Source: an uncultured Bacteroidales bacterium (GTDB taxonomy: Bacteria; Bacteroidota; Bacteroidia; Bacteroidales; UBA3663). From it: DNA of 64,000 bases. This document shows, in pieces, positions 30,529 to 49,165 of this stretch. A program made the translations under genes and the position numbers. How positions within the stretch are numbered: position 1 is the first letter of the stretch; the number at the start of each line of letters is the position of its first letter. The notes beneath the pieces were generated by a model. It saw only the letters and a program-made list of their open reading frames with translations. It searched no databases and was not told where the DNA came from. The DNA lies in contig CAJOLH010000002.1 in assembly GCA_905235375.1 (NCBI GenBank), positions 13,416-77,415 of the forward strand, read 5' to 3'.

Positions 30529-30536
30529 CAAAGTTA
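30529..30536 (-). promoter_or_regulatory. -7 box TAACTTTG (minus strand) upstream of the GH3 gene
   Basis: The plus strand reads CAAAGTTA at 30529-30536, 44 nt upstream of ATG 30485. Confidence 0.4.
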
Positions 30537-30597
30537 TATAAAAAAGTTCATTCTGCAAAGTATTTCCACCGAAAAAAGCAAATTTGTGAATAAAAAT

Positions 30598-30628
30598 TTT
30601 GTCAAGTCAGATTTAATTAATAATTTTG
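30598..30628 (+). promoter_or_regulatory. Bacteroidota-type promoter (-33 TTTG, -7 TAATTTTG) for the RyR/TIR operon
   Basis: TTTG at 30598-30601, a 19 nt spacer, and TAATTTTG at 30621-30628. It sits 39 nt upstream of ATG 30667. Confidence 0.5.
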
Positions 30629-30666
30629 CACGCTCAAGCAAGGTTTACAACCCCTTTTAGCCCATC

Positions 30667-33393
30667 ATGCAAACACCAGATGTTTGGGGAGATATCCCCT
30701 TTTGCAATTATACCTATTCGTTCGACTCACTGCTCAACAGTCCAGACTCGTTAAAGCAAGCCGAATCTTTGCGTATGCTTCGTGATATCTATGTCGTAAA
30801 TGTAGAGTCATCACAAGGAGCCAACCAATTCTTAAAATTCTATCGGCAATGCAGCGAAAATTGGTTGCCCTCGTTATTTTCTTTCGAATCGTTTACGCTT
30901 AAACTAATCCTATTGCTCCTTCTTGTCGTGGGGTTAACAATTCTATTTGTCCCTGCTTTACGAAACAGGATCAACAGCCACGTTGGCACGGTTCGTATGA
31001 TTACCGTTTGCCTTTGCTTGATGTTCCTTGCAGTTCCTCTTGGCAAGGATTATTATCCAATCATGTGTATTACAATCCTGAGCCTTGGGTTGCTTATCCT
31101 TTTCCTTTTTATTTTTGCACGTCTATCCTTATTATTCAAGAAGCATTGGTTCTGGACTGCAATTGTTTTGTTAGCGATTATCACAGCTTTTGTCAATTTT
31201 TCCCAGCCTATACCTTCCTTATCTCAAGTAAAAGTCAATGACAATCCTATCGACAATTACTTCCTAACCGTTACCACGGCTTTACTGCTTTTCACAGTAT
31301 TGTCATTTGTCCTTGCTTTGCATAATTATTTCGATTATAGAAAAAGCACATTAATTTCCGAAAAGAAATACCTTAGGAAACAGAATCTGGGATCATGGGC
31401 TCTCTGTACATGGTGTTTGGCTTTCCTACTTTATTTCATTGGTATATATTATAGTGGCACACAGCGTTCAATTCTCACTTCGCTACTCCGTCCTGCCTTA
31501 TCGGCCAGCAAAATCTTTATTCTTGCCGATAACACAGGAGATATTACCTTGGCTTTTCGTCGCAGTGGAATATTCATGGGTATTCTCTCGTTGACGCGAC
31601 TTTCAGGTTTCCTCGTTTCAGCCCAATTTATCATCAATTTGCTTGGAGCTCGCATCAAGGCCTCTATAAAGATTCGATTAGCGCATTGTTACAATAGTTC
31701 ACTTTACGTGTTCTTCAACATCAATAACGCTTCTGTTCAAGTCGCCAAGACCATTTCTGACACCGTTGGAAATAATCCACTTGTCGTGTTTGTAGATACT
31801 TACGAAGACAATATCTCCAATTCACGAATGACTTTTGGATTCGGTTCCTTTATGTCTTTGTTTACCCATAAGAAGGAAGCTTTTGAGACTATCGATACAA
31901 TTGATAAAAAAGACCTTCCTGCTTTAATTGACATTTCATCTTCAAAATTAGATGGAATATTCGAGGATTTCGATTCATTTTCTTCCATTGGATTAAGAAA
32001 CCTGCAAAGACTAATCAACGAATCTTCCAAAACAGAGTTCTTTTTCCTTTCGGATGATGAAAAAGCAAATATTGCTGGTGCAAAGAAACTTACTGGCTTG
32101 CTTGATAATAAATCCAAGCAGAAGTACATGATCTATTGTAATTGCCGAAACAATAGCTTAAGCCAATTGTTGCAATTCAATGATTATCGAATCGAAACTG
32201 TTGATTTTGCCAAACTGGCCATCGACCAATTAAAGAATAATCAAACAGGTCAGTTGACTGACTTATTGGACTTCGATGATACTGGCTGTTGTTGCTCTCC
32301 ATTCCGTTCGTTGGTGATTGGCCTGAATGAAATCGGCGAGGAAGCCGTCAATTATCTTTATGAATATGGTGCATTTGTAAATCATCAGAAGAAACGTAGC
32401 GATTTCGAATGTAATGTGATTGACCGCAATATGCATGACTTGGAAGGTGGTCTTTATATGCATTTCCCAGTTCTAAAGAACCAAATCAGGAATGTTCGAA
32501 TCAATCTATTACATTACGAAGTAGGAAGCCATAATTTTTGGAACTGGATCGAACAACAAATCTCATCTCTGAATTTCATACTAATTTCCTTAAGAAACGA
32601 AGATGAGCAACTGACTCTGGCCGACGATCTTTACAATCTTGCAGTCCGTCGTCGTCCTAAAGATGCTCCATTGCCTCTTAGAATATTTATTTGCGCATAT
32701 TCTGCCAACAGTGCAAACAAACTTAATTTGATGGCTGAAACCTATAGCAACTTGAATAGTTATGGCAATGTGCAAATAGTACCATTCGGACTGTCCGACA
32801 AACTCTTCGATTACCAATACATCACAAAACAGAAAATTTTAAGCCGTGCAAAGCAGTTCTACCAATCCTACCAAAAAGCGACAGAGAAACTTACGGAGGA
32901 AATGATTTCGTGGGAAAAACGTCGCGAGAATGTTCTTGCAAAGGAAAAGGATGACAACTCAACAGGTAAACTTGCGTCAATCCTTGAACTACTTCGTATG
33001 GAGTCGCAGGATATCAGTAATGAATATCATCGCAGAACAAAAATCTCAATCATCAAGCGTGCTCTTGCTCTTCACGATCAACACCACTACTCGTTACAGG
33101 AGATTTGTGAAGCCTTGCCGAAATCCATTACCTATGACATAAAGGCAAACCATATCTGTAACGATGATTATCTTAATACCTTGATTGAGAACATCGCTGT
33201 ATTGGAACACATTCGTTGGGAGGCAAGTCATGAGATTCAAGGATTCCAATATGATGCCAACGTTAAAAAACAAATACGTTCATTACTCAAAAAACATCCT
33301 TATATGGTGGATTGGAGCGATTTGACCAACGAAATCAAACTATATGACTTCGCAGTAGTAATTACCTCACTAATGATAGAAATAGATGAATAA
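30667..33393 (+). CDS. Polytopic membrane protein with two Rossmann/RCK(TrkA_N)-like modules and a C-terminal RyR domain
   Basis: 908 aa with about seven hydrophobic helices between about aa 78 and 325 (for example LKLILLLLLVVGLTILFVPAL, YFLTVTTALLLFTVLSFVLAL). Rossmann-like beta-alpha-beta starts: SLYVFFNINNASVQVAKTIS..PLVVFVD and RSLVIGLNEIGEEAVNYLYEYGAF...ECNVIDRN. The C-terminus LIENIAVLEHIRWEASHEIQGFQYD...KKHPYMVDWSDLTNEIKLYDFAVV fits the RyR-domain pattern (H..W....GW.YG....K.HP.LV.Y..L...EK..D). I saw no K+ selectivity-filter motif. Confidence 0.7.
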   Translation: MQTPDVWGDIPFCNYTYSFDSLLNSPDSLKQAESLRMLRDIYVVNVESSQGANQFLKFYRQCSENWLPSLFSFESFTLKLILLLLLVVGLTILFVPALRNRINSHVGTVRMITVCLCLMFLAVPLGKDYYPIMCITILSLGLLILFLFIFARLSLLFKKHWFWTAIVLLAIITAFVNFSQPIPSLSQVKVNDNPIDNYFLTVTTALLLFTVLSFVLALHNYFDYRKSTLISEKKYLRKQNLGSWALCTWCLAFLLYFIGIYYSGTQRSILTSLLRPALSASKIFILADNTGDITLAFRRSGIFMGILSLTRLSGFLVSAQFIINLLGARIKASIKIRLAHCYNSSLYVFFNINNASVQVAKTISDTVGNNPLVVFVDTYEDNISNSRMTFGFGSFMSLFTHKKEAFETIDTIDKKDLPALIDISSSKLDGIFEDFDSFSSIGLRNLQRLINESSKTEFFFLSDDEKANIAGAKKLTGLLDNKSKQKYMIYCNCRNNSLSQLLQFNDYRIETVDFAKLAIDQLKNNQTGQLTDLLDFDDTGCCCSPFRSLVIGLNEIGEEAVNYLYEYGAFVNHQKKRSDFECNVIDRNMHDLEGGLYMHFPVLKNQIRNVRINLLHYEVGSHNFWNWIEQQISSLNFILISLRNEDEQLTLADDLYNLAVRRRPKDAPLPLRIFICAYSANSANKLNLMAETYSNLNSYGNVQIVPFGLSDKLFDYQYITKQKILSRAKQFYQSYQKATEKLTEEMISWEKRRENVLAKEKDDNSTGKLASILELLRMESQDISNEYHRRTKISIIKRALALHDQHHYSLQEICEALPKSITYDIKANHICNDDYLNTLIENIAVLEHIRWEASHEIQGFQYDANVKKQIRSLLKKHPYMVDWSDLTNEIKLYDFAVVITSLMIEIDE

Positions 33394-33679
33394 GAAAAAA
33401 TACATTCCGCAACCGATTGACACTACAGGCGTTGAATTGCCTGCTGAACTGTTGGATTTGTCAGAAACCATAGCTCGTAATGTTCATGACATTTGGGCTC
33501 AATCACGCATAAATGAAGGTTGGACCTATGGAGAAAAACGCAATGACGAGAAACGTCAGACACCCTGCCTGGTCGATTATGACGATCTTAGCGAAGAAGA
33601 GAAAGCTTACGATATGAATACATCCCTTGAGTCCTTGCGTCTTATCGTAAAACTGGGCTTCAAAATAACAAAAGATTAA
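33386..33679 (+). CDS. Free-standing RyR-domain protein
   Basis: 97 aa. ARNVHDIWAQSRINEGWTYGEKRNDEKRQTPCLVDYDDLSEEEKAYDMNTSLESLRLIVKLGFKI is a near-textbook bacterial RyR (PF02026-type) pattern. The start overlaps the upstream stop by 8 nt (ATGAATAA). Confidence 0.8.
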   Translation: MNKKKYIPQPIDTTGVELPAELLDLSETIARNVHDIWAQSRINEGWTYGEKRNDEKRQTPCLVDYDDLSEEEKAYDMNTSLESLRLIVKLGFKITKD

Positions 33680-33709
33680 ACGAATCATTAGTCCTTAAAC
33701 CATATATAT

Positions 33710-35092
33710 ATGGGCGAAAAGATTTTTATTAGCTACAAACGAATAGATAAGAAGAAGGTATTGCCTATCGTCGAGGAAATTAGGAAAAAGACGGGGATCA
33801 ACTGCTGGATTGATATGGAAGGTATCGAAAGCGGTGATCAATTCGAACGTATTATCATCCGTGCTATCAAAGGTTGTGATATCCTTGTCTTCATGATGTC
33901 ACGCAACTCGATTGCTCCAATAATCGACACTAAGACAGGTCTTCCAGATTATGACACACAATCGTGGATCGAAAGAGAAGTGAAATTCGCTTTAGACAAG
34001 AAAAAACGTGTCATACCAATTAGCATCGATGGCACAATGGTTTCCGACTGTGATTGGTTGGCATTCAATTGCAACGGAATTGATTGCATAGATTACAGCA
34101 ACCAAGACCAACGTGATAAATTTTTCCGCGATATCACCAGATGGCTGAAGAATACAATCACCGATGTGAAGGAATCAACGGATAAAGGAGCGAAGCCAGA
34201 ACAAAAAATCGAAGTTAGACAGAAACCTAAAGTCGAGGAGAAACAGACTTCACAACAATCTTCACTTCCTACCAAAACCGCAGATTCATCATCTACTCTG
34301 CCGTACTCCTATCTTGCTATAGTCGCTGTGATTGTTGGGCTTGTCATAGCCCTTGCATTTGGACTATGGCCCAAAAACTCAACTGTAGAGCCAACAATTC
34401 CACAAAGTTCGGTCTTCAATGATAGTGCACCCTCTGTAGCTGATTCGCCAGTCTTGAAAGAAAGCGATGTCGTTCCACCCGTTGATAATGAAAAGACAAA
34501 GAGCAATCAGAATAACATTGTGGCTTCAACCCTTCCTGCATCTTCAAAAAATGCAGAACACACGTCTTCTACCAAAACCGTTTCCAACGAAGAAGTTTTA
34601 CCTACTATAAAGGGAGCACCTCACGATCTTGACAGCATTGGCACATGTTATCTGTTTGGCAAGGGTGTGACGAAAAACCAGAAACAGGCTGTCATCTATT
34701 TCCGAAGCGCAGCCCAGCAAGGTTTGGCCAGTGCGCAAACACATCTGGGTAGTTGTTATTATTCGGGCACTGGTGTCAATCAAAACCATCAACAAGCTTT
34801 TGAATGGTTTCTGAAAGCCGCAAAACAAGGAGACCTTACAGCTCAAGATAATTTAGGAAGTTGTTATCTGCTTGGACATGGAACTACTAAAAACCATATT
34901 GCTGCAGTCGAATGGTATAAAAAGGCTGCTGGCAAAGGAAATGCCAGTGCTCAAGCTCATCTCGGTAGCTGTTACCTTTATGGTCAAGGTGTCACCGCAG
35001 ATAAAGATACTGCAATTTATTGGTATGAAAAAGCCGCAGCACAGGGAAACACAACGGCAAAAAAGAATCTTGAGAAGCTATCGACAAACTGA
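33710..35092 (+). CDS. TIR domain - transmembrane helix - Sel1-repeat protein
   Basis: 460 aa. N-terminal TIR_2-type pattern: KIFISYKRIDKK..., CWIDMEGIESGDQFERIIIRAIKGCDILVFMMSRNS, SWIEREV with a candidate catalytic Glu at E90 (nt 33977-33979), and VIPISIDG. It continues through a K/E/Q-rich linker, a TM helix YLAIVAVIVGLVIALAFGLW and an S/P/T-rich linker. It ends in four to five Sel1 repeats (AQTHLGSCYYSGTGVNQNHQQAFEWFLKAAKQG... and others). Confidence 0.8.
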   Translation: MGEKIFISYKRIDKKKVLPIVEEIRKKTGINCWIDMEGIESGDQFERIIIRAIKGCDILVFMMSRNSIAPIIDTKTGLPDYDTQSWIEREVKFALDKKKRVIPISIDGTMVSDCDWLAFNCNGIDCIDYSNQDQRDKFFRDITRWLKNTITDVKESTDKGAKPEQKIEVRQKPKVEEKQTSQQSSLPTKTADSSSTLPYSYLAIVAVIVGLVIALAFGLWPKNSTVEPTIPQSSVFNDSAPSVADSPVLKESDVVPPVDNEKTKSNQNNIVASTLPASSKNAEHTSSTKTVSNEEVLPTIKGAPHDLDSIGTCYLFGKGVTKNQKQAVIYFRSAAQQGLASAQTHLGSCYYSGTGVNQNHQQAFEWFLKAAKQGDLTAQDNLGSCYLLGHGTTKNHIAAVEWYKKAAGKGNASAQAHLGSCYLYGQGVTADKDTAIYWYEKAAAQGNTTAKKNLEKLSTN

Positions 35093-35128
35093 TTAGTCAA
35101 TAACGCGACTTGATATTTGCTAAAAAAT

Positions 35129-35170
35129 AACGAGAGAATCACGATTCGTAAGAATCAAGATTCTCTCGTT
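35129..35170. terminator. Strong hairpin shared by the two convergent operons (likely bidirectional terminator)
   Basis: Perfect 12 bp stem AACGAGAGAATC (35129-35140) / GATTCTCTCGTT (35159-35170), with an A-run upstream and T-containing sequence downstream. It lies between the stops at 35092 (plus strand) and 35203 (minus strand). Confidence 0.6.
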
Positions 35171-35202: not shown

Positions 35203-36681
35203 TTACCAACAGAAACCTATACCAAACTGGAAATTATTTACGTTATCCTTACAAAAATCTTTGTAATCTCCCGTATATGCCCAGAATGTACGTCGGTAGG
35301 TAAACTTCAAGGCAAATCTAAAATACTTTAGAACAATACCAGCCTCCAAGTCAGCGCCGCCGAAAATATTCTTCTTGGTGTAATCGTCAAGAAATTTATT
35401 ATCAGGAGTAGAATGATAGTCTGAATCGTATTTTTCTTCATCAAAAGAAAGGAAACCTCCATAATGACCGCCAAAACCTGCATGAATATAGATGGGCATC
35501 CAGATATGCCATGTAGGACCAGTGGTAATACAAGCCTCATATTCTAAATTTTCAGGAGATGGAAATTCATCATCGCCTTTCTTTGTCCAACTATTTTCGT
35601 AAATAAATTCCTCATCTTTGTATTCCCCTTGGACATGAGAGGTAAAATGCTCGAAGAAAGATTCATTCGCCATGAGTGTTACATACCAGCCGTTCGTCTT
35701 ATTGTTGTAAAAAGAGCCATAAGTGAATCCAAACATATCATTCTGAGGACTCCATTCAACAATAAATGTACGCGAATGGCTATCCTTGCGAAGACGAGCT
35801 CTACGAACCATTTCCAAACCTTCATTAGCTTGTTTGGTAAACCTGGTACAACCATTATCGATAACCTGATTAAGCATTTGGCTCGCACGGTCGAGATTAC
35901 CTTCGTCCAGTTGTTTCAGTCCCATGTTAATCATAGCTTCACAGTCGCGATCAAAGTTGTGCTGTGCATTATAAAGCGCTTGACGTAATTTGTCATTACC
36001 GTCATAGATAAGGAGTTTGCTATAGGCATTTGCAGATTCATGATATCTAAAGAAATGGTCAGCTTCAACTGCTTGATTATACCAAAGCAGCATTGAGTCG
36101 CACAACTCGATATGATGCAAAATGTTGGCAGTATCATTCAGATATTCGGGGCAGAAGCGGCACAACTCATAGTTATCCTTGGCTTTCTGATACTCGCTAT
36201 TATTGAACGATTCCTGAGCCTTTTCCAGGTAAGTAAAGAATGGACTACGAAGCACAGAATAGGGGTCGCTGACTGTATATTCAAACAACTGTTTGTCCTT
36301 GAGTGGCAATGGCATACGATAGTCCTGGAAACCCGGCACCCTGATTGTCAAACGACGGTTGGAATAGTCTCGACCCGGCTCTTGGGTAATGAACACGATG
36401 CTATAAGTCTTCTTGCCGGCAATCGAATCAACGGTAATGTTCATTTGGTTTTGAGTATCATGCGTAGATTCAAAAGTCAGTCCAAAAGGTTCATGAGTGA
36501 CAAATTGCACCAAAGCTTCATGACGATCGCCACAAGGATAGACACCATAACCAGAAGTCGTTTCCTGTACGTTGAGAAGCTTCAGCTTTTCTTGTCCGAA
36601 CATTGCCATAGTGCTCGTCATCAGCATTGCAATAAGGGCCAATTTATGCTGGGCCGTAAACGAAAATAAAAGTCTTTTCAT
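35203..36681 (-). CDS. Secreted hypothetical protein: N-terminal PEGA-like/TPR-like region plus a C-terminal outer-membrane beta-barrel-like domain (operon gene 5)
   Basis: 492 aa with a signal peptide (...STMAMFGQ). The central helical-repeat region contains NNSEYQKAKDNYELC... and LDEGNLDRASQMLNQVI. The C-terminal third has alternating aromatic/Gly strands and ends ...NNFQFGIGFCW, with the terminal aromatic typical of OM barrels. Confidence 0.65.
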   Translation of the reverse strand: MKRLLFSFTAQHKLALIAMLMTSTMAMFGQEKLKLLNVQETTSGYGVYPCGDRHEALVQFVTHEPFGLTFESTHDTQNQMNITVDSIAGKKTYSIVFITQEPGRDYSNRRLTIRVPGFQDYRMPLPLKDKQLFEYTVSDPYSVLRSPFFTYLEKAQESFNNSEYQKAKDNYELCRFCPEYLNDTANILHHIELCDSMLLWYNQAVEADHFFRYHESANAYSKLLIYDGNDKLRQALYNAQHNFDRDCEAMINMGLKQLDEGNLDRASQMLNQVIDNGCTRFTKQANEGLEMVRRARLRKDSHSRTFIVEWSPQNDMFGFTYGSFYNNKTNGWYVTLMANESFFEHFTSHVQGEYKDEEFIYENSWTKKGDDEFPSPENLEYEACITTGPTWHIWMPIYIHAGFGGHYGGFLSFDEEKYDSDYHSTPDNKFLDDYTKKNIFGGADLEAGIVLKYFRFALKFTYRRTFWAYTGDYKDFCKDNVNNFQFGIGFCW

Positions 36682-36705
36682 AGCTATTGAGTAGTTAATA
36701 TATAT

Positions 36706-37716
36706 TTATTTGATTGTAAAATAATCAAGATTGAATACCTCGTCGCGTTTTATTTCCCTTCCCTCATATTCATTAGGCTGCCACGTGCGAACCTCAATAC
36801 TTGGATTCATGGAATCCTCAAAATTGATCATCAGGAAGAGCCAGCCGACATCCGAATAGGTCGAAGTATTCCAGTATTGCTTAAGGGTTACTCCATAAAT
36901 CTTTTCATGAATGGGATGTTGAATCACCGAAACCTCTTCAAACTTGATGTTGATATAATTGTTCCTGCTGAATATCTTCTGCAACTTGGCGATATATTCC
37001 TTCTTGTTCTGGACCACCAGCTGGTATTGCTGACCGCCTAATCCCTGCAACATTAGATTGGCATCCTTATTACGGTCTTTCTTTCTCAAGATTGTACCCG
37101 TGATGATTAGCGCGTCATCACTATAAACCTGCTTCAGATAACCAAGGTCTTTACGATTGTATGCTGTTCGGAACACCTCAACGAAATCAAGTATCATCTG
37201 TCGACGAACAAGGTCTTCCTCTTTCACGCCATTCACTATGACATTATTATAATTATGCTTTTCAAGCTGCATATTGACCTCGGTAAGATGTCCATTATTG
37301 TCAAACGAGAAAACCATATCCTGAAACAGATTGTCACCTTCGGCACTAAGAACATTCACGGGAATATCACGAAACTGATATCCTCGATTTCCATAAAGGG
37401 TCAAAACATTTCCTTCCACCAGATCTACACTACAGTTGATAGGGCTTTGCTCCCAAAGATCCATGATACTTTTAATCAAAATCTTGTTGTTGGGATCCTT
37501 ATCAGGGAAATGTTCTTTCAACTTATCTTTCAACTTCTTGCCATCTTCCAGTACTGCATCATTGAAAGCTGTGAGCAAACTGGCAGTTTCCTGTTCGATG
37601 TTAGCCTTGGCAGCGGCCGACATCTGACCACTCAAGACCTTTACCTTGACTTGTGCCTGCAAACCCATCACGTAGAAGGGGAGAAGCAACAGAAGGACTG
37701 TTACAATTCTTTTCAT
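36706..37716 (-). CDS. Secreted hypothetical protein, possible NTF2-like C-terminal fold (operon gene 4)
   Basis: 336 aa with a signal peptide (PFYVMGLQA). The segment FVEVFRTAYNRKDLGYLKQVYSDDALIITG resembles the opening helices of NTF2/SnoaL-like folds. The start overlaps the upstream stop by 4 nt. Confidence 0.6.
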   Translation of the reverse strand: MKRIVTVLLLLLPFYVMGLQAQVKVKVLSGQMSAAAKANIEQETASLLTAFNDAVLEDGKKLKDKLKEHFPDKDPNNKILIKSIMDLWEQSPINCSVDLVEGNVLTLYGNRGYQFRDIPVNVLSAEGDNLFQDMVFSFDNNGHLTEVNMQLEKHNYNNVIVNGVKEEDLVRRQMILDFVEVFRTAYNRKDLGYLKQVYSDDALIITGTILRKKDRNKDANLMLQGLGGQQYQLVVQNKKEYIAKLQKIFSRNNYINIKFEEVSVIQHPIHEKIYGVTLKQYWNTSTYSDVGWLFLMINFEDSMNPSIEVRTWQPNEYEGREIKRDEVFNLDYFTIK

Positions 37717-38882
37717 TTTCTTAAATAAGGTATTTCGTTAATAATCTTGTTTCTATTCTTAGAGTTGTCTTTCCCATTAGGGAGATATTCCTCAAAAAGG
37801 GAATAGACATTATGTTGCGGTGTATTGGTGTATAGCAGGGCTGAGAGTGTGGTCGGCTTCTCGGTACCTAATTGGTCGATAGGAATACTCAAGAGCAACA
37901 TGTGGATAAATTCAAACGAGGTATTGCGTAGGATAAGAATACCTGTCAACATTCCTTTCTCAGGCATATATTGGGCTGCTGCAAAATGATCCATCATTCC
38001 TTCATCTTTAAGTCCCGCTAACAAAGTGGGCCAGCTGCAAGTCCACGTTTCATAATGACGGCCATATTGACAATGTGTCACTTCTATAGTCAGCCCCTTG
38101 GGCAGTATATTTCCAAGCAGAAGGTTTTTGACCGATTCCTTCGGATGTTCAGGAGTCCACAAAGCAACTATTGAACTATCTTCCAAAATTTTATAGTAGC
38201 CATCGGCACAAAGTGAATCTATATAGAAGACTTCACCTATCGTATGCCATACATTTTGATTCTGTGTCGCAAACAACTGGTTATAAGAGGGCAATGGATT
38301 CACTGATGCTTTCCCCGTAAAGTTCTGCAGTCTTTTCGATTGCCGCTCATCCTCTTCTTTCTTGTCAGTACCGTAAATCAGTTCCCGATCCTTTGGAATA
38401 TAAAGCAGCAAGGTTGTTTCCGGCTGGCTTCCCGAAATAAAAATCCTGTAGCGATTATTGTCTTCGAAGACTTGAACACCCTTCACATTCTTCAAGATTG
38501 GATATGCCTTTGCAAATGTCTTGAACGGTACTGTGCCGTATGGACATGCCTCTAAGAAGACTCGAACACCATTCTCTTGAATCCATTTGTAGCGTCGTTG
38601 TTCAGACCCATGGAGTACGATTCGCAGCACGATGCGCTCTACGCCACGCCAAAGGTAAGGATTCAAGGCTTGCTGCATCGTGTCGCTGAAGATGGCAACA
38701 CCAATATGACTAAGTTGTCCGTCTGCATCGCGCTCTTCACGAATAGGCAGGTCAGTCTTGAATGTCTGACGCAGTTCCTTTAGTCGCTGTATCTCAAGCG
38801 ACTCTTCGGCGAAAACGTTACCGATAAGTGCTTGTATAGTGACAATCAAAACTGCAAGCAGTCTTCGCATATCAGTATTCAC
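37713..38882 (-). CDS. Secreted hypothetical protein (operon gene 3)
   Basis: 389 aa with a signal peptide (IQALIGNVFA). I recognised no motif. The start overlaps the upstream stop by 4 nt. Confidence 0.6.
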   Translation of the reverse strand: MNTDMRRLLAVLIVTIQALIGNVFAEESLEIQRLKELRQTFKTDLPIREERDADGQLSHIGVAIFSDTMQQALNPYLWRGVERIVLRIVLHGSEQRRYKWIQENGVRVFLEACPYGTVPFKTFAKAYPILKNVKGVQVFEDNNRYRIFISGSQPETTLLLYIPKDRELIYGTDKKEEDERQSKRLQNFTGKASVNPLPSYNQLFATQNQNVWHTIGEVFYIDSLCADGYYKILEDSSIVALWTPEHPKESVKNLLLGNILPKGLTIEVTHCQYGRHYETWTCSWPTLLAGLKDEGMMDHFAAAQYMPEKGMLTGILILRNTSFEFIHMLLLSIPIDQLGTEKPTTLSALLYTNTPQHNVYSLFEEYLPNGKDNSKNRNKIINEIPYLRK

Positions 38883-40966
38883 TTTTCGTTAATTTTATAA
38901 CCATAGGAAAGAAGAACTGGTATCCAGGCATCATACTCTGCTTGAACGGCAAGATTCTTGCATTCGATTGACTTTTCAAAATTGTAGTCTAAACCATGGT
39001 GTTTGCCATTTGCGCAACAATAAGCTCTTGACAATTCTTCAAAAGCTCTTGGGCAACCCATCTCTGCCGCGCGTGTAGTGTGCTCGATATATGAACGATA
39101 ATCGTTCTTCAGCCAATAATAATGACCAAGATCCAACTCAGCATAGGAATTTCCCGCATCAGCTGCCTGATTAAGCCACATCGTTGCTTCGTCCAAATTC
39201 CTCTTGTCGGGCTGACACCATAATAATAGATGTCCTAACTGTTGGATGCTATGCAAGTCGCCCCTGATTGCTCCCTGCCGATAATAATGGGCAGCACTAT
39301 CTACCATCATCGGAGTGAGACTACTACTTAAGTCGCCATCCTCATCCCATCCCATCGAATTAGTTCTCACATACATATCGCCCTTGAGACCGTACCATCG
39401 TGCATCATTCTGGTCTTTTAGGCTTTGCATCCAATATTCCGACGATTTGAGATATTTCCTGCGCGTTGCTGTGCTATGTTCCCCATACTCGTATGCTTCG
39501 TAGAAATAATAACTTGCCAACCAAGCCTTTGCATTTGGGTCGGAAACAACAGTCGCCAGATGTGTCATCGTCTGAATGGCCTTGTTTTCATTTCGCTTCA
39601 CTCCAATACCAAATTGATAAAGGATGGCGAGAGGATAACTTCTGCCTATATACCTTTGCGCATCTTCATTAACCCTCATAAAAATATTCTGCGCCTCATA
39701 GTCATTTCGATAATCGACCTGCTCGGGCATTTCATATTTTGCATAAGTGTCAGGTGCACGATATAGATAAATCTTCTGATTCTGGCCTCTGCGCGTACGC
39801 ATATAACCATTGGAATTGATATTGTTTCTGACATTGCCGAGATTACACTCCAAGACATTCGGACTTACGAGTTTGCAATCAAACGTATATTCCACAGTGG
39901 TGGTAATGCTTTTCCCTGAGCTTAACAGATTAGATGCCTGATCGTTGTCTTGATCCGGATCTGAAGGTGAATCGTTGAACGGAAGTAGATGAGCTATGTT
40001 CGAAACAAGATTGCGTGTCCATTTCAAAAGATTTTTGCTCTGGTCATATTCTTCATCAATGGAAAAAACAAAACTAATCAAATTGCCATTTGTCTTACCC
40101 TCAGCTTCTTCGTTGACAATCACAAAACGCATATCATTTAACAGACGTACACGTTTCATGTAGTTCATCTTCTGGGTCTGTATCGCTTGAATGTAACGCG
40201 ACTCACAGACGATTCCCGATTGATCGGAAATCGAAATGAGATACGTTCCATTGTCGGTTCGCTTGAAACGGAAGATCCACATCTCGCGACCATCTTCAAT
40301 ACAGTTATCACTCACCCAACGTCCCGTGAGGTCAGAATTGGCCGAAGCGGGAATCGTCGTATTCATGTTGAGTTTTGGCAATTCCAGCCCGTAATGTCTA
40401 AGGAAACTGAAACCTTGATAAGGTTTTAATGGGGTTTCTTCAATATTTTTTTGCAGAGGAAATGTGTTGGCAGCAGCTCTTGCTTCCTCATCAGTTGTTA
40501 TCACAGGCACAGCATCCTGAATGGCAAGTTCCCTCTGGCTATCCTGTTCCTCCAAGTCATCAAAATGGTTGATTTTCAGCAAATCCTCAAGTTCTCTTAA
40601 TCTATTTCGTGGTTCAACAATTTTCTCCGAGTCATATTCCAAGGTGAGATATTTTCGATAGAAATAGATTGCACTGGCAAGAGCTTCTGGATTATGTAAG
40701 CGATCATACATGTCTTCATAAATATGTGCCTTCCGAAGATAAGGTGCCGGGTATCCGGGCGATAACTCAATAACGACATCAATAGCCGCCAACGCATCGT
40801 CAAAATTATTTTTGCGCATGAACATTTCTGCCCTCATGAACTGAAGATTCACTTGTGAACGTGTCACTTGTCCATAAGCAATATCTTCCGTCAATTGGGA
40901 TAGGAACGATAGCAATATCATTCCCTGTATCAATAGAAAACGTCTTATGCAACTATCTATTTTCAT
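38879..40966 (-). CDS. Secreted TPR / Sel1-repeat protein (operon gene 2)
   Basis: 695 aa with an N-terminal hydrophobic signal. A TPR-like segment (FMRAEMFMRKNNFDDALAAIDVVIELSPGYPAPYLRKAHIY) is followed by an unknown middle domain. The C-terminus has Sel1-like repeats (AAHYYRQGAIRGDLHSIQQLGHLLLW; ATMWLNQAADAGNSYAELDLGHYYW; TTRAAEMGCPRAFEELSRAY). Confidence 0.7.
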   Translation of the reverse strand: MKIDSCIRRFLLIQGMILLSFLSQLTEDIAYGQVTRSQVNLQFMRAEMFMRKNNFDDALAAIDVVIELSPGYPAPYLRKAHIYEDMYDRLHNPEALASAIYFYRKYLTLEYDSEKIVEPRNRLRELEDLLKINHFDDLEEQDSQRELAIQDAVPVITTDEEARAAANTFPLQKNIEETPLKPYQGFSFLRHYGLELPKLNMNTTIPASANSDLTGRWVSDNCIEDGREMWIFRFKRTDNGTYLISISDQSGIVCESRYIQAIQTQKMNYMKRVRLLNDMRFVIVNEEAEGKTNGNLISFVFSIDEEYDQSKNLLKWTRNLVSNIAHLLPFNDSPSDPDQDNDQASNLLSSGKSITTTVEYTFDCKLVSPNVLECNLGNVRNNINSNGYMRTRRGQNQKIYLYRAPDTYAKYEMPEQVDYRNDYEAQNIFMRVNEDAQRYIGRSYPLAILYQFGIGVKRNENKAIQTMTHLATVVSDPNAKAWLASYYFYEAYEYGEHSTATRRKYLKSSEYWMQSLKDQNDARWYGLKGDMYVRTNSMGWDEDGDLSSSLTPMMVDSAAHYYRQGAIRGDLHSIQQLGHLLLWCQPDKRNLDEATMWLNQAADAGNSYAELDLGHYYWLKNDYRSYIEHTTRAAEMGCPRAFEELSRAYCCANGKHHGLDYNFEKSIECKNLAVQAEYDAWIPVLLSYGYKINEK

Positions 40967-40978
40967 CCAATTAAGAAA

Positions 40979-42337: not shown

Positions 42338-42361
42338 CTTGAATATATATTTAAAGCGGCA

Positions 42362-42369
42362 CAAAGATA
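42362..42369 (-). promoter_or_regulatory. -7 box TATCTTTG (minus strand) for the five-gene operon
   Basis: The plus strand reads CAAAGATA at 42362-42369, 25 nt upstream of ATG 42337. Confidence 0.45.
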
Positions 42370-42794: not shown

Positions 42795-43130
42795 ATGGAT
42801 GATCTCATACTACGCATCGAAACTATCATGAATGAAGAGTTGTTGTTTAGGAACCCGGAACTCACCATCCGTGATGTTGCGAGAGAACTTGCCACCAATC
42901 GCTTCTACATTTCGAGGGCTATCAACACGCATTTTGGCTATTCTTTTACCGTTTACATCAATCGAAAGCGCATTGAGTATTCCATTACGTTAATGTCTGA
43001 ATTTCCCATGAAGACAATGGATAGCATAGCTACCGAGTCGGGTTTTCTCTCTGAAAAAGCATTCTTCCAAAAGTTCCGGCAAGTCATGAACGATTCGCCC
43101 CGATCATATATGAAGAAACTAAAGCCTTGA
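42795..43130 (+). CDS. AraC/XylS-type helix-turn-helix protein, DNA-binding domain only
   Basis: 111 aa. LTIRDVARELATNRFYISRAINTHFGYSFTVYINRKRIEY...MDSIATESGFLSEKAFFQKFRQVMNDSPRSY is a dual-HTH AraC C-terminal domain with no sensor domain. TACTTTTG at 42709-42716 is a candidate -7 box. Confidence 0.7.
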   Translation: MDDLILRIETIMNEELLFRNPELTIRDVARELATNRFYISRAINTHFGYSFTVYINRKRIEYSITLMSEFPMKTMDSIATESGFLSEKAFFQKFRQVMNDSPRSYMKKLKP

Positions 43131-43152
43131 CCGATTTGGCCAAGGCTTTTTT
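43122..43152. terminator. Rho-independent terminator overlapping the AraC-like stop codon
   Basis: Stem AAGCCTTG / CAAGGCTT (about 43123-43148), followed by TTTTTT (43147-43152). Confidence 0.6.
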
Positions 43153-43168
43153 ATTCAGTATAATTAAA

Positions 43169-43330: not shown

Positions 43331-43356
43331 AATGTAATACTTATCATTGTGTTAGA

Positions 43357-48999: not shown

Positions 49000-49165
49000 C
49001 AGATTATTTTTCATTTCACCATAAGAAATTATTTAATTTCACTATTTTGTCTTAAATTTTAATGATTATTTTGATAATTCATTCATCGACTTCTCAGAGA
49101 AAGGAGCTGTAACGTAAATCGAGGCGGGTACGCCCTACATTAGTATGTTTTGGATTTTCGGCGGG

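What the first reader, a model, noticed from the sequence alone, without database searches (positions are those of the whole stretch)
30598..35170. Three-gene operon pairing a TIR-domain transmembrane protein with two RyR-domain proteins: candidate NAD-linked signalling or anti-phage system
Seen in sequence: three co-directional genes sit between a good TTTG/TAATTTTG promoter (30598-30628) and a perfect 12 bp-stem terminator (35129-35170). Genes 1 and 2 overlap by 8 nt (ATGAATAA), and gene 3 follows after 30 nt. Gene 1 (908 aa) has about seven TM helices, two Rossmann/RCK-like modules and a C-terminal RyR domain. Gene 2 (97 aa) is a lone RyR domain. Gene 3 is TIR-TM-Sel1.

Established knowledge: bacterial TIR domains are NAD+ glycohydrolases/cyclases. 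In Thoeris and related defence systems they make ADP-ribose-derived signals or deplete NAD+. TrkA_N/RCK Rossmann modules bind NAD(H) or other nucleotides. Bacterial and phage RyR domains (PF02026) have no assigned function.

Inference: the TIR protein could generate or consume a nucleotide that the Rossmann/RyR proteins sense, with the polytopic membrane protein acting as effector. To my knowledge this gene trio does not match a named defence system (Thoeris ThsA/ThsB, CBASS, Pycsar, AVAST). It also sits in an AT-rich, accessory-looking block.
Basis: partly seen in the sequence, partly recalled or inferred. Interest (0 to 1): 0.85.

Follow-up and report, generated by a model that had tools for sequence, protein, structure and literature searches.

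The report
TIR–RyR–channel-like signalling operon in Bacteroidales
A gut-type Bacteroidales bacterium carries a conserved three-gene operon that pairs a membrane-anchored TIR enzyme (a maker of NAD-derived signals) with two ryanodine-receptor-type domains, one of them on a BK/CASTOR-like channel-shaped membrane protein; this looks like an undescribed bacterial version of "cyclic ADP-ribose talks to a RyR domain".

Summary
Three co-directional ORFs (30667-33393, 33386-33679, 33710-35092) lie between a Bacteroides-type promoter and a strong hairpin, with the stated 8-nt overlap and 30-nt gap.

- **Gene 2:** a canonical RyR domain (Pfam 1.7e-33).
- **Gene 3:** TIR–TM–4×Sel1. Its W86/E90 align with SARM1 W638/E642.
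- **Gene 1:** about 7 TM helices, a tandem RCK-like gating ring and a divergent C-terminal RyR domain. The AF2 model (pLDDT 86.6) best matches Slo1/BK, TrkA and CASTOR. HHalign to the RyR profile gives 98.4%.

The trio is syntenic in every orthologue examined, down to 45% identity. Gene 1 belongs to a large unannotated family (1060 clusters). In 66 distant Bacteroidales loci of that family, 36 carry TIR genes, 33 carry canonical RyR genes and 45 carry either. These genes are packed next to the family gene and are co-directional with it.

A 2026 preprint shows that phage RyR-domain proteins bind or cleave the TIR products 2'/3'cADPR through H75, W78, H100 and D117. Gene 1 keeps all four residues. 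Gene 2 keeps three (H100→Thr).

Best reading: a Thoeris-like but receptor-style pathway. TIR makes an ADPR-derived signal, and RyR domains read it on a channel-like effector and on a small partner or off-switch. An anti-phage role, ligand identity and channel activity are all untested. No named system matches.

The parts
30598..30628 (+). Bacteroides-type promoter (-33 TTTG, 19 nt spacer, -7 TAATTTTG), 39 nt upstream of the gene 1 ATG
   Evidence: Sequence read. The pattern is enriched 10 against 0.87 expected in the window. A second, divergent copy at 30529-30559 (-) serves the GH3 gene.
30667..33393 (+). Gene 1, 908 aa: polytopic membrane protein with a tandem RCK-like ring and a divergent RyR domain (putative ligand-gated channel-like effector)
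   Evidence: ORF. 13 close homologues and 1060 family clusters. AF2 model pLDDT 86.6, pTM 0.80. Foldseek top hits are Slo1/BK, TrkA and CASTOR/DMI1.
30904..31320 (+). Gene 1 residues 80-218: five extra N-terminal TM helices, specific to this clade
   Evidence: Hydropathy segments at 80-98, 106-124, 132-150, 161-179 and 200-218. The wider family aligns only from about residue 230.
31354..31680 (+). Gene 1 residues 230-338: outer helix, short re-entrant helix, loop ('LADNTGD'), then a long inner helix running into RCK1. This is the family-wide conserved membrane core and has an M1-P-M2-like layout.
   Evidence: DSSP of the model gives H230-260, H269-285, H295-299 and H301-338, with pLDDT about 88-95. 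Conserved G252, Y256, F284 and D288. There is no K+ filter motif. The only sequence hint is the KAT3 S5 helix at E 0.07, which is not significant.
31693..32826 (+). Gene 1 residues ~343-720: two Rossmann/RCK-like alpha/beta modules. The second carries the family GxGxxG motif (GFGETG in the consensus, GLNEIG here; G552 and G557 invariant).
   Evidence: Foldseek hits: TrkA 4j9u 2e-5, LjCASTOR ring 6o7c 8.8e-5, MtDMI1 7vm8. Paralogue Pfam Slo-like_RCK 7.3e-6, above the cut-off. Invariant columns.
33160..33390 (+). Gene 1 residues ~832-908: divergent RyR domain that keeps H848, W851, H877 and D894
   Evidence: Pfam RyR E 0.049 only. HHalign against the small-RyR profile gives 98.4%, E 7.5e-15. PDB profile hit 6uhi 1.5e-6. 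The four residues are invariant in 13 homologues and at least 90% conserved in 127. They align to RyDEP-type H75/W78/H100/D117.
33386..33679 (+). Gene 2, 97 aa: stand-alone canonical RyR domain, translationally coupled to gene 1 (8-nt overlap). Key residues are H34, W37, T59 and D76.
   Evidence: Pfam RyR 1.7e-33. PDB 3NRT/6UAG, the B. thetaiotaomicron 'putative ryanodine receptor', 1.6e-35. The Thr at the H100-equivalent position is conserved in the 5 orthologues.
33710..35092 (+). Gene 3, 460 aa: TIR (residues 5-137, nt 33722-34120), K/E-rich linker, single TM (residues 202-220, nt 34313-34369), S/T/P-rich linker, then 4 Sel1 repeats (residues ~307-457, nt 34628-35080)
   Evidence: Pfam TIR_2 3.4e-17 and Sel1 2.8e-43. 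SARM1 TIR 6e-7, with W86/E90 aligned to W638/E642. TM. Conserved in orthologues.
35129..35170 (.). 12-bp perfect-stem hairpin between the trio and the convergent minus-strand cluster. The U-tail is on the minus strand only.
   Evidence: Sequence. Folding z-scores -4.2 (+) and -4.7 (-).
35203..42364 (-). Convergent five-gene cluster of signal-peptide proteins (492, 336, 389, 695 and 461 aa). It is co-conserved with the trio in the 6 further orthologous loci with enough flanking sequence, though two of them (L002, L086) run off the locus end within the cluster. A functional link is not shown.
   Evidence: ORFs. Synteny in L001, L002, L006, L008 and L086. Only weak Pfam hints: NTF2-like Cds6_C, TPR/Sel1, Big_1, LPP20.

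Best explanation
The trio is a membrane-embedded TIR second-messenger module. It follows Thoeris-like logic but is built like a receptor pathway.

**Signal generator (gene 3).** The TIR domain sits on the cytoplasmic face, tethered by one TM helix to Sel1 repeats that are inferred to face the periplasm. A cue perceived by or through the Sel1 side, or phage-induced clustering, is inferred to bring the TIR domains together. The W86/E90 active site would then convert NAD+ into an ADP-ribose-derived nucleotide of the cADPR-isomer class.

**Effector (gene 1).** The signal is read by RyR-type domains. The RyR-like domain at the C-terminus of gene 1 keeps all four residues that phage RyDEP uses to hold 3'cADPR. 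It sits directly behind a tandem RCK gating ring, which is attached to an outer helix / re-entrant loop / inner helix membrane core, as in Slo/MthK/CASTOR channels. Ligand binding is inferred to gate ion flow or otherwise perturb the membrane.

**Partner (gene 2).** Gene 2 is a free RyR domain made in step with gene 1. It keeps the glycosidase dyad (H34, D76) and the adenine-stacking Trp, but has Thr in place of the phosphate-binding His. It most likely acts in one of two ways:
- It pairs with the single RyR repeat of gene 1 to build a two-repeat R12-like module.
- It acts as the system's buffer or off-switch, as a sponge or hydrolase.

**Shown and not shown.**
- Shown: gene structure, domains, catalytic and ligand residues, synteny, and family-wide TIR/RyR co-localisation.
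- Inferred: signal identity, binding, gating, topology of the Sel1 part, and the biological trigger.
- Undecided: whether the output serves phage defence or envelope/environment sensing.
For: 1. **Operon structure.** Promoter, 8-nt overlap and 30-nt gap.
2. **TIR is catalytically competent by sequence.** TIR_2 3.4e-17. The best solved relative is the SARM1 NADase TIR, with W86/E90 aligned to W638/E642. The motif is conserved in 5 orthologues.
3. **RyR domains are nucleotide binders.** RyDEP binds or cleaves 2'/3'cADPR through H75, W78, H100 and D117 (PMC13232231). I aligned a RyDEP orthologue from the same NARP1 context (Aegeus gp81). It gives gene 1 H848/W851/H877/D894 and gene 2 H34/W37/T59/D76. 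The quartet is invariant or at least 90% conserved across 127 family members.
4. **Gene 1 C-terminus is a RyR domain.** HHalign 98.4%.
5. **Channel-like architecture.** The high-confidence model's top Foldseek hits are full-length Slo1/BK (717-894 aligned columns), TrkA and the CASTOR/DMI1 rings. A paralogue passes the Pfam Slo-like_RCK threshold.
6. **Conserved linkage.** The trio is present in all orthologous loci down to 45% identity.
7. **Family-wide linkage.** Among 66 loci of 22-28%-identical relatives in Prevotella, Bacteroides, Muribaculaceae, Parabacteroides and others, 36 have TIR, 33 have canonical RyR and 45 have either.
   - 46 of 50 TIR genes and 36 of 38 RyR genes are co-directional with the family gene.
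   - Density at gene ranks within 3 against ranks of 7 or more: TIR 10.7% against 1.7% (p 1.4e-5); RyR 8.6% against 1.7% (p 3e-4).
8. **Reciprocal sampling.** Starting from small RyR proteins, 3 of 4 loci have TIR and 3 of 4 have a family member, one of them (L089) only a weak paralogue-level match, E 1.4e-10.
9. **Receptor-like TIRs.** 29 of 50 neighbouring TIR proteins are N-terminal TIR, one TM, then an ectodomain such as FGE-sulfatase, Sel1 or CarboxypepD_reg.
10. **Natural fusion.** A gene-1-like protein is fused to a T-type canonical RyR in L059.
Against: - There is no biochemical or genetic evidence of any kind.
- Gene 1 has no recognisable selectivity filter, and its membrane core gives no significant sequence match to any channel. 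Foldseek TM-scores to Slo1 are low (about 0.25), so the match reflects shared architecture rather than a close superposition.
- The window's neighbours are not defence genes (GH3, a secreted-protein cluster, an AraC regulator, a C10 protease). The locus is vertically conserved, which is atypical for defence islands.
- 21 of 66 family loci show neither TIR nor RyR within 10 kb.
- Most tested RyDEP homologues are sponges rather than enzymes, and RyR R12 domains also bind plain ATP/ADP (PMC13232231). The ligand could therefore be an ordinary adenine nucleotide.
- Gene 2 lacks the phosphate-binding His.
- The single fusion case comes from a MAG and could be an assembly error.
Confidence: 0.55

Rival explanations
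1. NAD-level sensing rather than a dedicated messenger. The TIR is a plain NAD+-depleting effector. The RCK/RyR protein is a nucleotide-regulated ion channel whose Rossmann (GxGxxG) and RyR pockets read NAD(H) or ATP/ADP levels, so it responds to the depletion rather than to a cADPR-type signal.
For: - RCK2 keeps the GxGxxG glycines G552 and G557.
- TrkA-type RCK domains bind NAD(H)/ATP (established knowledge).
- RyR R12 binds adenine nucleotides (PMC13232231).
- The closest solved TIR relative is SARM1, an NAD+ consumer.
Against: - SARM1-type TIRs also make cADPR isomers.
- The strict conservation of the terminal-ribose and catalytic contacts (H848, D894), which RyDEP uses specifically on the ribose-ribose-linked ligand, is not needed for ATP or NAD sensing.
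- A free RyR protein that keeps the glycosidase dyad has no obvious role in this model.
- Several TIRs and several RyR proteins occur per island, which suggests signal/receptor pairs.
Confidence: 0.15
2. The chemistry is the same but the system is not an immune system. It is an envelope or environment sensing pathway: the periplasmic Sel1 domain senses a cue, perhaps connected to the co-conserved secreted five-gene cluster, and the outputs are physiological, such as ion flux here and transcription in relatives.
For: - The locus is vertically conserved among glycan-utilisation genes, with no defence neighbours.
- The TIR is anchored to an ectodomain, unlike cytosolic ThsB proteins.
- In 14-15 relatives' loci the family gene is followed by a divergent ECF sigma factor and a C39-like-RyR protein in the anti-sigma position. 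That is a transcriptional rather than a suicidal output.
- Only 1 hit in 2.9 million viral contigs.
Against: - Relatives' islands are rich in typical conflict-system parts: TPR-CHAT, SIR2-TIR, TIR-WD40, nSTAND1, FHA-trypsin and ThsB_TIR.
- Phages carry RyR-domain counter-measures, which implies that the host pathways they target matter for immunity (PMC13232231).
- The Sel1 ectodomain topology is inferred, not shown.
Confidence: 0.35
3. There is no functional unit. The three genes are neighbours through shared descent in one lineage. Gene 1 is a housekeeping RCK-regulated K+ channel or transporter, and gene 2 and gene 3 act elsewhere.
For: - Most close orthologous loci share the same flanks (GH3, pectate lyase), so part of the synteny is simply vertical inheritance.
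- 21 of 66 distant family loci lack both partners within 10 kb.
Against: - The association persists at 22-28% identity across several families with reshuffled gene orders.
- The partners are co-directional and sit within 3 genes or fewer.
- There is an 8-nt translational overlap.
- A fusion case exists.
- The family's own C-terminal domain is a RyR domain.
Confidence: 0.05

Closest known systems
Thoeris anti-phage systems (types I-XI; TIR ThsB plus a signal-activated effector), especially type II (Macro-TM effector), type V (ThsF) and type VII (SLATT), which target the membrane
   Same: A TIR protein with the catalytic Glu is encoded next to a protein that combines a nucleotide-sensor domain with a membrane-spanning part. 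The predicted logic is that an NAD+-derived signal activates a membrane effector (10.64898/2025.12.03.692087).
   Different: - The sensor domain is RyR (PF02026-type), which is not listed among Thoeris effectors.
- The effector has a tandem RCK ring.
- The TIR is membrane-anchored with Sel1 repeats rather than a small cytosolic ThsB.
- There is a third component, a free RyR protein.
- PADLOC and NCBIfam Thoeris models score far below threshold.
- The window shows no defence-island context.
- Defence has not been tested.
Type X Thoeris (TIR plus 'ion channel' effector ThsK; Bacillus sp. BH32, Vibrio; signal unknown)
   Same: It pairs a TIR with a predicted ion channel, and its signal molecule is not one of the known ones.
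   Different: - The type X TIR is a ~140-165 aa cytosolic protein of the type II/VII TIR cluster, with no detectable similarity to the gene 3 TIR (BLASTP E 0.46).
- I could not obtain the ThsK sequence, so effector homology is untested.
- Type X is a two-gene system in Bacillota and Vibrio. This one has three genes and is in Bacteroidales.
RyDEP, phage RyR-domain proteins that hydrolyse or sequester 2'cADPR/3'cADPR (PMC13232231)
   Same: Same domain family. The ligand and catalytic residues align position for position (H75/W78/H100/D117). The spacing is identical in gene 2, and gene 1 has one 4-residue insertion.
   Different: - Host-encoded rather than phage-encoded.
- One copy is fused to a membrane/RCK protein.
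- It is encoded beside the TIR rather than in an NAD-salvage (NARP1) operon.
- Gene 2 has Thr at the phosphate-binding His position.
- The predicted role is receptor or regulator rather than immune evasion.
RCK-gated cation channels (Slo1/BK, MthK, CASTOR/POLLUX/DMI1) and TrkA
   Same: Overall build: a membrane domain ending in a long inner helix that runs into two Rossmann-like RCK modules. These are the best structural matches. A paralogue passes the Pfam Slo-like_RCK threshold.
   Different: - No TVGYG-type or other recognisable selectivity filter.
- No Ion_trans_2 or TrkA_N Pfam hit.
- An additional C-terminal RyR domain.
- Low TM-scores.
- Oligomeric state and conductance are unknown.
Animal ryanodine receptor Repeat12 (R12) domain and the cADPR-RyR Ca2+-release axis
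   Same: Gene 2 is 40-50% similar to RyR repeats (E 1e-54 to RyR2). Here a RyR-type domain sits on a channel-like protein beside an enzyme of the class that makes cADPR (SARM1-like TIR).
   Different: - The membrane part is unrelated to the RyR pore.
- There is a single repeat per polypeptide: two genes here against a tandem in animals.
- Direct cADPR binding to animal R12 is itself unproven.
B. thetaiotaomicron 'putative ryanodine receptor' (PDB 3NRT, 4N05, 6UAG)
   Same: A ~100-aa stand-alone RyR protein from Bacteroidales that aligns full-length with gene 2 (E 1.6e-35).
   Different: It has His at the H100-equivalent position (KKHPCLV), where gene 2 has Thr (RQTPCLV). Its genomic partners were not examined here.

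Membership tests
Pfam RyR domain (PF02026) | Score above the gathering threshold (27.4 bits), gene 2 | tested here: met
   115.1 bits, E 1.7e-33, covering 1-91 of 91 profile positions.
Pfam RyR domain (PF02026) | Score above the gathering threshold, gene 1 C-terminus | tested here: not met
   14.3 bits, E 0.049. Homology is nevertheless supported by HHalign at 98.4%, E 7.5e-15, and by a family-profile hit to PDB 6uhi at 1.5e-6. It is a divergent member.
RyDEP-type cADPR-binding or cADPR-cleaving RyR proteins | Catalytic dyad His75 and Asp117, plus adenine-stacking Trp78 | tested here: met
   Gene 1 H848/D894/W851 and gene 2 H34/D76/W37 align with Aegeus gp81 H75/D117/W78.
RyDEP-type cADPR-binding or cADPR-cleaving RyR proteins | Phosphate-coordinating His100 | tested here: inconclusive
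   Met in gene 1 (H877). Not met in gene 2 (T59, conserved as RQTPCLV in 5 orthologues). 28 of 36 neighbouring small or medium RyR proteins in relatives have His.
RyDEP-type cADPR-binding or cADPR-cleaving RyR proteins | Binding or hydrolysis of 2'cADPR/3'cADPR | not testable with these tools
   Needs EMSA, ITC or TLC with purified proteins.
TIR NADase/cyclase (PF13676 TIR_2) | Domain score above threshold and the catalytic Glu in the aligned position | tested here: met
   63.5 bits against a 28-bit cut-off. E90/W86 align to SARM1 E642/W638 (the SARM1 residue identities come from my own knowledge). Conserved in orthologues.
Thoeris (any described type) | Match to curated ThsB/ThsA or other Thoeris models | tested here: not met
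   PADLOC ThsB hits at E 2.5e-4 or worse, partial; no hits for genes 1 and 2. NCBIfam ThcB4 scores 24.2 bits against a 220-bit cut-off.
Thoeris (any described type) | TIR adjacent to an effector carrying a sensor for the TIR signal | tested here: inconclusive
   Adjacency and conservation are shown. Sensor function of the RyR domain is inferred from RyDEP (PMC13232231).
Thoeris (any described type) | Protection against phage, dependent on the TIR catalytic residue | not testable with these tools
   Needs phage challenge of a host carrying the operon with and without E90A.
Thoeris (any described type) | Enrichment next to known defence genes | tested here: inconclusive
   The window's neighbours are not defence genes. 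Relatives' islands contain CHAT, SIR2-TIR, nSTAND1, ThsB_TIR and TIR-WD40. No formal defence-score calculation was possible.
Type X Thoeris (ThsB plus ion-channel ThsK) | TIR belongs to the type II/VII/X TIR cluster | tested here: not met
   BLASTP of the gene 3 TIR against the type X TIR from Table S1 gives E 0.46.
Type X Thoeris (ThsB plus ion-channel ThsK) | Effector homologous to ThsK | not testable with these tools
   The ThsK sequence is not in the held text. Plasmid loci with a type-X-like TIR all carried Macro effectors.
RCK-gated P-loop cation channels (Slo/MthK/CASTOR) | Tandem RCK (Rossmann-like) gating-ring fold after the last TM helix | tested here: met
   Foldseek probability 1.00 to TrkA, CASTOR, DMI1 and Slo1. 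TM-score normalised to the target is 0.38-0.43 for the isolated rings.
RCK-gated P-loop cation channels (Slo/MthK/CASTOR) | Pfam TrkA_N or Ion_trans_2 signature | tested here: not met
   No such hit for gene 1 at E up to 1. One relative gives TrkA_N at E 0.0076, and a paralogue gives Slo-like_RCK at 7.3e-6.
RCK-gated P-loop cation channels (Slo/MthK/CASTOR) | Pore helix plus selectivity-filter motif between the two last TM helices | tested here: inconclusive
   The helix-loop-helix layout is present (H269-285, loop LADNTGD). There is no TVGYG-like motif and no significant sequence match.
RCK-gated P-loop cation channels (Slo/MthK/CASTOR) | Tetrameric assembly and ion conduction | not testable with these tools
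   Needs multimer modelling or cryo-EM, and flux or electrophysiology.
Sel1 repeat proteins (PF08238) | Repeats above threshold | tested here: met
   145.2 bits, 4 repeats, residues ~315-457.

The most novel reading that the evidence does not exclude
In Bacteroidales the RyR domain is the native receptor module for TIR-made ADP-ribose-derived second messengers. Receptor-like TIR-TM-ectodomain proteins signal across the inner membrane. RyR domains then couple that signal to an RCK-ring cation channel (this operon) and, in relatives, to an ECF sigma / anti-sigma-like pair. This would be a prokaryotic forerunner of the animal 'cADPR opens a ryanodine-receptor channel' axis, and a new, three-component branch of TIR signalling.
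Probability: 0.35. Interest if true: 0.9.

Novelty: new variant of a known kind. Interest (0 to 1): 0.8.

Why it matters
**A cellular role for bacterial RyR domains.** If the reading is right, bacterial RyR domains gain a cellular function as receptors of TIR-derived nucleotides. So far only phage copies have been characterised, as counter-defence proteins. It would also suggest one host pathway that such phage proteins could be aimed at.

**New parts for TIR signalling.**
- A new sensor domain.
- An RCK-ring, channel-like effector.
- A membrane-receptor form of the TIR enzyme.
- Possibly a built-in off-switch.

**Scale.** The system sits in abundant gut and rumen Bacteroidales, in a family of about 1000 sequence clusters that currently has no annotation.

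**A small model for an old question.** Whether cADPR-type ligands act directly on the RyR Repeat12 fold, and whether that can gate a channel, has long been disputed in animal Ca2+ signalling. This operon offers a tractable model: a 97-aa RyR protein, a ~110-aa RyR-like tail and a 140-aa TIR domain.

Tried and rejected
- **Word-indexed homologue search with the wide-family alignment.** It returned only the close clade and wasted one search.
- **The search for related loci with the 127-sequence alignment.** A 28-sequence alignment worked, but its search pattern (EHLRWNAS) restricts the sample, so the taxonomic range of the wide family (all hits Bacteroidales) may be an artefact of the pattern.
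- **Obtaining a type X Thoeris ion-channel effector through its TIR in the plasmid collection.** All six loci inspected were type II (Macro) systems or lacked an annotated neighbour.
- **Sequence evidence for a pore.** A profile of the conserved membrane core against PDB sequences gave only a non-significant hit to the S5 helix of KAT3 (E 0.07). I therefore do not claim a K+ channel.
- **First AF2 model with 13 sequences.** Poor in the membrane core (pLDDT 67). It was superseded by the 127-sequence model.
- **Foldseek against viral structures.** Nothing significant. A phiRSL1 RyR-domain protein appeared only at E 0.36.
- **sigma-70 promoter and terminator scan.** Uninformative for Bacteroidales. 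It missed the hairpin because the loop is longer than 8 nt.
- **Specific kinship between the gene 3 Sel1 repeats and the neighbouring 695-aa TPR/Sel1 protein.** Rejected: only generic repeat similarity, 32% over 60 aa.
- **Recently acquired mobile island.** Rejected: no integrase or transposase nearby, conserved flanks in relatives, and only 1 hit in IMG/VR.

Full report

Yes. ORF listing gives three co-directional + strand genes: 30667-33393 (908 aa), 33386-33679 (97 aa) and 33710-35092 (460 aa). Genes 1 and 2 overlap in ATGAATAA (33386-33393), and gene 3 starts 30 nt after the gene 2 stop.

A Bacteroides-type promoter, TTTG then 19 nt then TAATTTTG, lies at 30598-30628. That two-part pattern occurs 10 times in the window against 0.87 expected, and 0 of 100 shuffles reach 10. 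A second copy on the other strand (30529-30559) serves the divergent GH3 gene.

The 12-bp perfect stem at 35129-35140 / 35159-35170 folds far better than shuffled sequence (z -4.2 and -4.7). Its U-run is on the minus strand, so it primarily terminates the convergent minus-strand cluster and may act bidirectionally.

The 30.5-46.5 kb block is AT-rich (GC 0.34-0.44, against 0.51-0.55 in the 4 kb upstream (26-30 kb) and 0.41-0.60, mostly above 0.50, downstream).

**2. What the three proteins are**

*Gene 2* is a full-length canonical RyR domain (Pfam 115 bits, E 1.7e-33). It aligns end to end with the crystallised B. thetaiotaomicron 'putative ryanodine receptor' (3NRT/6UAG, E about 1e-35) and with the repeats of animal RyR1-3.

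*Gene 3* has the following parts:
- An N-terminal TIR_2 domain (E 3.4e-17).
- One hydrophobic helix at 202-220.
- Four C-terminal Sel1 repeats (E 2.8e-43).

Its closest solved relative is the SARM1 NADase TIR (E 6e-7). In that alignment W86 and E90 fall on SARM1 W638 and E642. The identity of those SARM1 residues as active-site residues is from my own knowledge. The SW(I/T)E(R/K)EV motif is conserved in five orthologues. Because a TIR needs cytosolic NAD+, the Sel1 part is inferred to face the periplasm.

*Gene 1* gives no Pfam family above threshold; RyR scores E 0.049 at residues 833-899. Three lines of evidence define it.
- **The tail is a RyR domain.** A profile of the C-terminal ~140 residues from 156 relatives matches a profile of small RyR proteins with HHalign probability 98.4% and E 7.5e-15. 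A family profile also hits the PDB RyR chimera 6uhi at 1.5e-6.
- **The fold is channel-like.** With a 127-sequence alignment, AlphaFold2 gives a confident model (pLDDT 86.6, pTM 0.80). Its best PDB matches are full-length Slo1/BK channels (E 6.6e-6, 717-894 aligned columns), TrkA, the CASTOR and DMI1 gating rings, and Slo2.2 (the weaker first model already found TrkA and CASTOR). TM-scores to whole channels are low (about 0.25) and are 0.38-0.43 to the isolated rings. The claim is therefore shared architecture, not close similarity.
- **A paralogue carries RCK.** A 663-aa paralogue found beside family members passes the Pfam Slo-like_RCK threshold.

The membrane part of gene 1 has two sections:
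- Five clade-specific N-terminal helices (residues 80-218).
- A family-wide conserved core: helix 230-260, a short helix 269-285, the loop LADNTGD, and a long helix 301-338 that runs straight into the first RCK strand.

That core has the layout of an outer helix, pore helix, filter and inner helix. It has no K+-type filter motif and no significant sequence match to any channel; the only hit is KAT3 S5 at E 0.07. The second Rossmann module keeps the GxGxxG glycines (G552 and G557 invariant).

**3. Are the genes linked?**

*Close relatives.* Gene 1 has only 12 other relatives in the word-indexed search: 11 orthologues at 45-71% identity and one distant member, P0013, at 25%. Every orthologous locus with enough flanking sequence carries the same order, gene 1 then RyR then TIR-Sel1. 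This includes the 45%-identical one, whose upstream genes differ.

*The wider family.* An exhaustive profile search shows that gene 1 belongs to a large unannotated family. It has 1060 clusters at E up to 1e-3 and 430 at E up to 1e-30. Most members are 700-850 aa and cover residues ~230-908, which is the membrane core, the ring and the RyR-like tail. Pfam sees nothing in them except sub-threshold RyR hits.

*Neighbourhoods of distant members.* I fetched 68 loci of distant members (22-28% identity) from species-representative genomes. All are Bacteroidales: Prevotella, Bacteroides, Phocaeicola, Parabacteroides, Muribaculaceae and others. I then called ORFs and searched them with HMMs built from this operon. 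Of 66 usable loci:

| Feature within 10 kb | Loci |
|---|---|
| TIR protein | 36 |
| Canonical RyR protein | 33 |
| Both | 24 |
| Either | 45 |

- 46 of 50 TIR genes and 36 of 38 RyR genes are co-directional with the family gene.
- They concentrate at gene ranks -3 to +5.
- Within 3 genes, TIR density is 10.7%, against 1.7% at ranks of 7 or more (Fisher p 1.4e-5). For RyR the figures are 8.6% and 1.7% (p 3e-4).

*Composition recurs.* TIR-(TM)-Sel1 proteins appear beside distant family members in three further lineages. In one Muribaculaceae locus (L048) the order is the same: family gene, RyR, TIR-Sel1.

*Reciprocal sampling.* Starting from four small RyR proteins chosen only for contig length, 3 of 4 loci had TIR genes and 3 of 4 had a family member, one of them (L089) only a weak paralogue-level match at E 1.4e-10.

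*Fusion.* One MAG encodes a gene-1-like protein fused in frame to a canonical RyR domain of the same Thr type as gene 2 (L059, 902 aa). This is suggestive, but a single case could be an assembly error.

**4. Why RyR next to TIR makes mechanistic sense**

A May 2026 preprint (PMC13232231) reports that the phage RyR-domain protein RyDEP hydrolyses the ribose-ribose bond of 2'cADPR and 3'cADPR, the products of Thoeris TIRs. It also reports that six of eight tested phage homologues bind these signals, some as nanomolar sponges. The residues involved are:
- H75 and D117, which form the catalytic dyad and contact the terminal ribose.
- W78, which stacks on the adenine.
- H100, which coordinates the phosphates.

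I recovered a RyDEP orthologue from the same NARP1 context (Mycobacterium phage Aegeus gp81) and aligned it.

| RyDEP residue | Gene 1 | Gene 2 |
|---|---|---|
| H75 | H848 | H34 |
| W78 | W851 | W37 |
| H100 | H877 | T59 |
| D117 | D894 | D76 |

- In gene 1 the four residues are invariant in the 13 closest homologues and at least 90% conserved in 127 family members.
- In gene 2 the Thr is conserved in all five orthologues.
- Of the 36 neighbouring RyR proteins in relatives whose motif could be read, 28 have His, 7 have Thr and 1 has Tyr.

**5. Most likely mechanism**

Confidence is about 0.55 for the whole chain.

*Shown:*
- An operon that encodes a catalytically intact TIR on a membrane tether.
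- A RyR-tailed, RCK-ring membrane protein.
- A free RyR protein.
- A linkage among these three that is conserved across Bacteroidales.

*Inferred:*
- A cue acting on or through the Sel1 side, or infection, clusters the TIR domains.
- The TIR converts NAD+ into an ADPR-derived nucleotide.
- The nucleotide binds the RyR-like tail of gene 1 and, through the RCK ring, opens or remodels the membrane core, giving ion flux or depolarisation.
- Gene 2 is co-translated with gene 1. It either supplies the second RyR repeat needed for an R12-like pair (RyDEP is a dimer, and animal R12 is a tandem), or it acts as a buffer or off-switch by sequestering or hydrolysing the signal. The second role would be analogous to ring nucleases in type III CRISPR; that analogy is mine.

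*Undecided:* whether the output is abortive-infection-type defence or a physiological response.
- Against defence: the window's neighbours are a GH3 glycosidase, a five-gene secreted-protein cluster, an AraC regulator and a C10 protease. The locus is vertically conserved. The family is nearly absent from viral contigs.
- For a conflict role: relatives' islands are full of TPR-CHAT, SIR2-TIR, TIR-WD40, nSTAND1, FHA-trypsin, PrsW and ThsB_TIR proteins. Phages also invest in RyR-domain counter-measures.

**6. Comparison with known systems**

*What it works like.* It works like Thoeris: a TIR signal activates an effector that carries a sensor domain, and several such effectors target the membrane.

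*Why it is not a member of any described type.*
- PADLOC gives nothing for genes 1 and 2, and only partial sub-threshold TIR hits for gene 3.
- NCBIfam Thoeris and retron-TIR models score about 10% of their cut-offs.
- The December 2025 catalogue of 29 putative Thoeris types contains no mention of RyR, PF02026, RCK, TrkA or Sel1 in its text or in the four supplementary files held as text, two of which were truncated when stored.

*Nearest named system.* That is type X Thoeris (TIR plus 'ion channel' ThsK, signal unknown).
- Its TIR belongs to the small cytosolic type II/VII cluster and shows no similarity to the gene 3 TIR (E 0.46).
- I could not obtain a ThsK sequence, so effector homology remains open.

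*Literature.* Full-text searches found no paper that links host RyR domains to TIR operons or to Bacteroides. The searched library is not exhaustive.

**7. Novelty and scores**

I rate this a new variant of a known kind: TIR second-messenger signalling with a new sensor domain, a new effector build, a receptor-like TIR and a third RyR component.

Interest is 0.8.
- It gives host-encoded RyR domains a testable function immediately after the phage discovery.
- It annotates a ~1000-cluster family in dominant gut and rumen bacteria.
- It offers a small model for the old question of whether cADPR-type ligands act directly on the RyR repeat fold to gate a channel.

The main risks are that the ligand is an ordinary adenine nucleotide, that gene 1 is not a channel, or that the biological role is not immunity.

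Noticed in passing
window 35203-42364 (- strand): A five-gene cluster of signal-peptide proteins of unknown function: 492 aa; 336 aa with a weak NTF2-like Cds6_C hit; 389 aa; 695 aa with TPR and weak Sel1; and a 461-aa lipoprotein-like protein with Big_1 and weak LPP20. It is convergent with the trio and co-conserved with it in every orthologous locus examined, even where the upstream genes differ. It could be the envelope structure or cue that the Sel1 ectodomain monitors, or it could simply be a neighbour.
   Followed up: partly
L010:8135-9677; L034:3802-5377; L052:20570-22079; L053:12144-13635; L088:5458-6931; L090:10129-11773: In 14-15 loci of the wider family, the channel-like gene is followed by a divergent ECF sigma factor. 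This ~185-aa protein matches TIGR02937 over its full length at E 5e-10 to 9e-7, just below the cut-off. Next comes an overlapping ~320-aa protein with a C39-peptidase-like middle and a canonical C-terminal RyR domain, in the position of an anti-sigma factor. This suggests a RyR-controlled transcriptional output.
   Followed up: partly
L059:32-2740: A 902-aa ORF in a Porphyromonadaceae MAG fuses a gene-1-like protein, with its own divergent RyR tail, in frame to a canonical RyR domain that has Thr at the His100-equivalent position, like gene 2. It is either a Rosetta-stone fusion or a lost stop codon in the assembly.
   Followed up: partly
L009-L076 (e.g. L038:16127-17446, L021:14976-16112, L042:14024-15364, L020:14919-17684): TIR proteins around the family are mostly receptor-like: 29 of 50 have an N-terminal TIR, one TM and an ectodomain such as FGE-sulfatase, Sel1 or CarboxypepD_reg. 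SIR2_2-TIR and TIR-WD40 proteins, TPR-CHAT, an M48 peptidase with a zinc ribbon, FHA-like-TM-trypsin and PrsW proteases also recur. Some islands hold up to 5 TIR and 2-3 RyR genes (L060).
   Followed up: partly
L087:5249-7300: In a Paludibacteraceae MAG, a TIR-FGE-sulfatase protein, a small 4-TM-looking 107-aa protein and a 99-aa RyR protein sit together among butyrate-metabolism genes, with no gene-1-family member within 7 kb. The TIR-RyR pairing can therefore occur without the channel-like protein.
   Followed up: no
L085:1384-1794 (Mycobacterium phage Aegeus gene 81): This 136-aa protein is annotated as hypothetical. It lies between the NARP1 genes (phosphoribosyl pyrophosphate transferase and nicotinate ribosyltransferase) and carries H75, W78, H100 and D117. 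It is evidently an unannotated RyDEP orthologue. 139 phage records in the collection carry RyR-domain hits, mostly annotated as hypothetical.
   Followed up: partly
window 42795-45945: A small AraC-type HTH protein (111 aa, +) and an 862-aa C10 cysteine peptidase with an N-terminal I69 inhibitor domain (-) follow the five-gene cluster. They keep that position in the orthologous loci L006 and L008.
   Followed up: no
window 49094-49396: A minus-strand ORF here translates into near-identical repeated peptides (…SAYPFLAKIGYTP… three or four times). This points to a tandem or dispersed DNA repeat in an intergenic, lower-GC stretch rather than a real gene.
   Followed up: no
L004, L005 (P0013, 1018 aa) and P0014-P0023: A second tier of full-length relatives (25-35% identity, 840-1090 aa, also with long N-terminal membrane regions) exists. 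It was seen only on short contigs, so I could not check whether they keep RyR and TIR partners.
   Followed up: no
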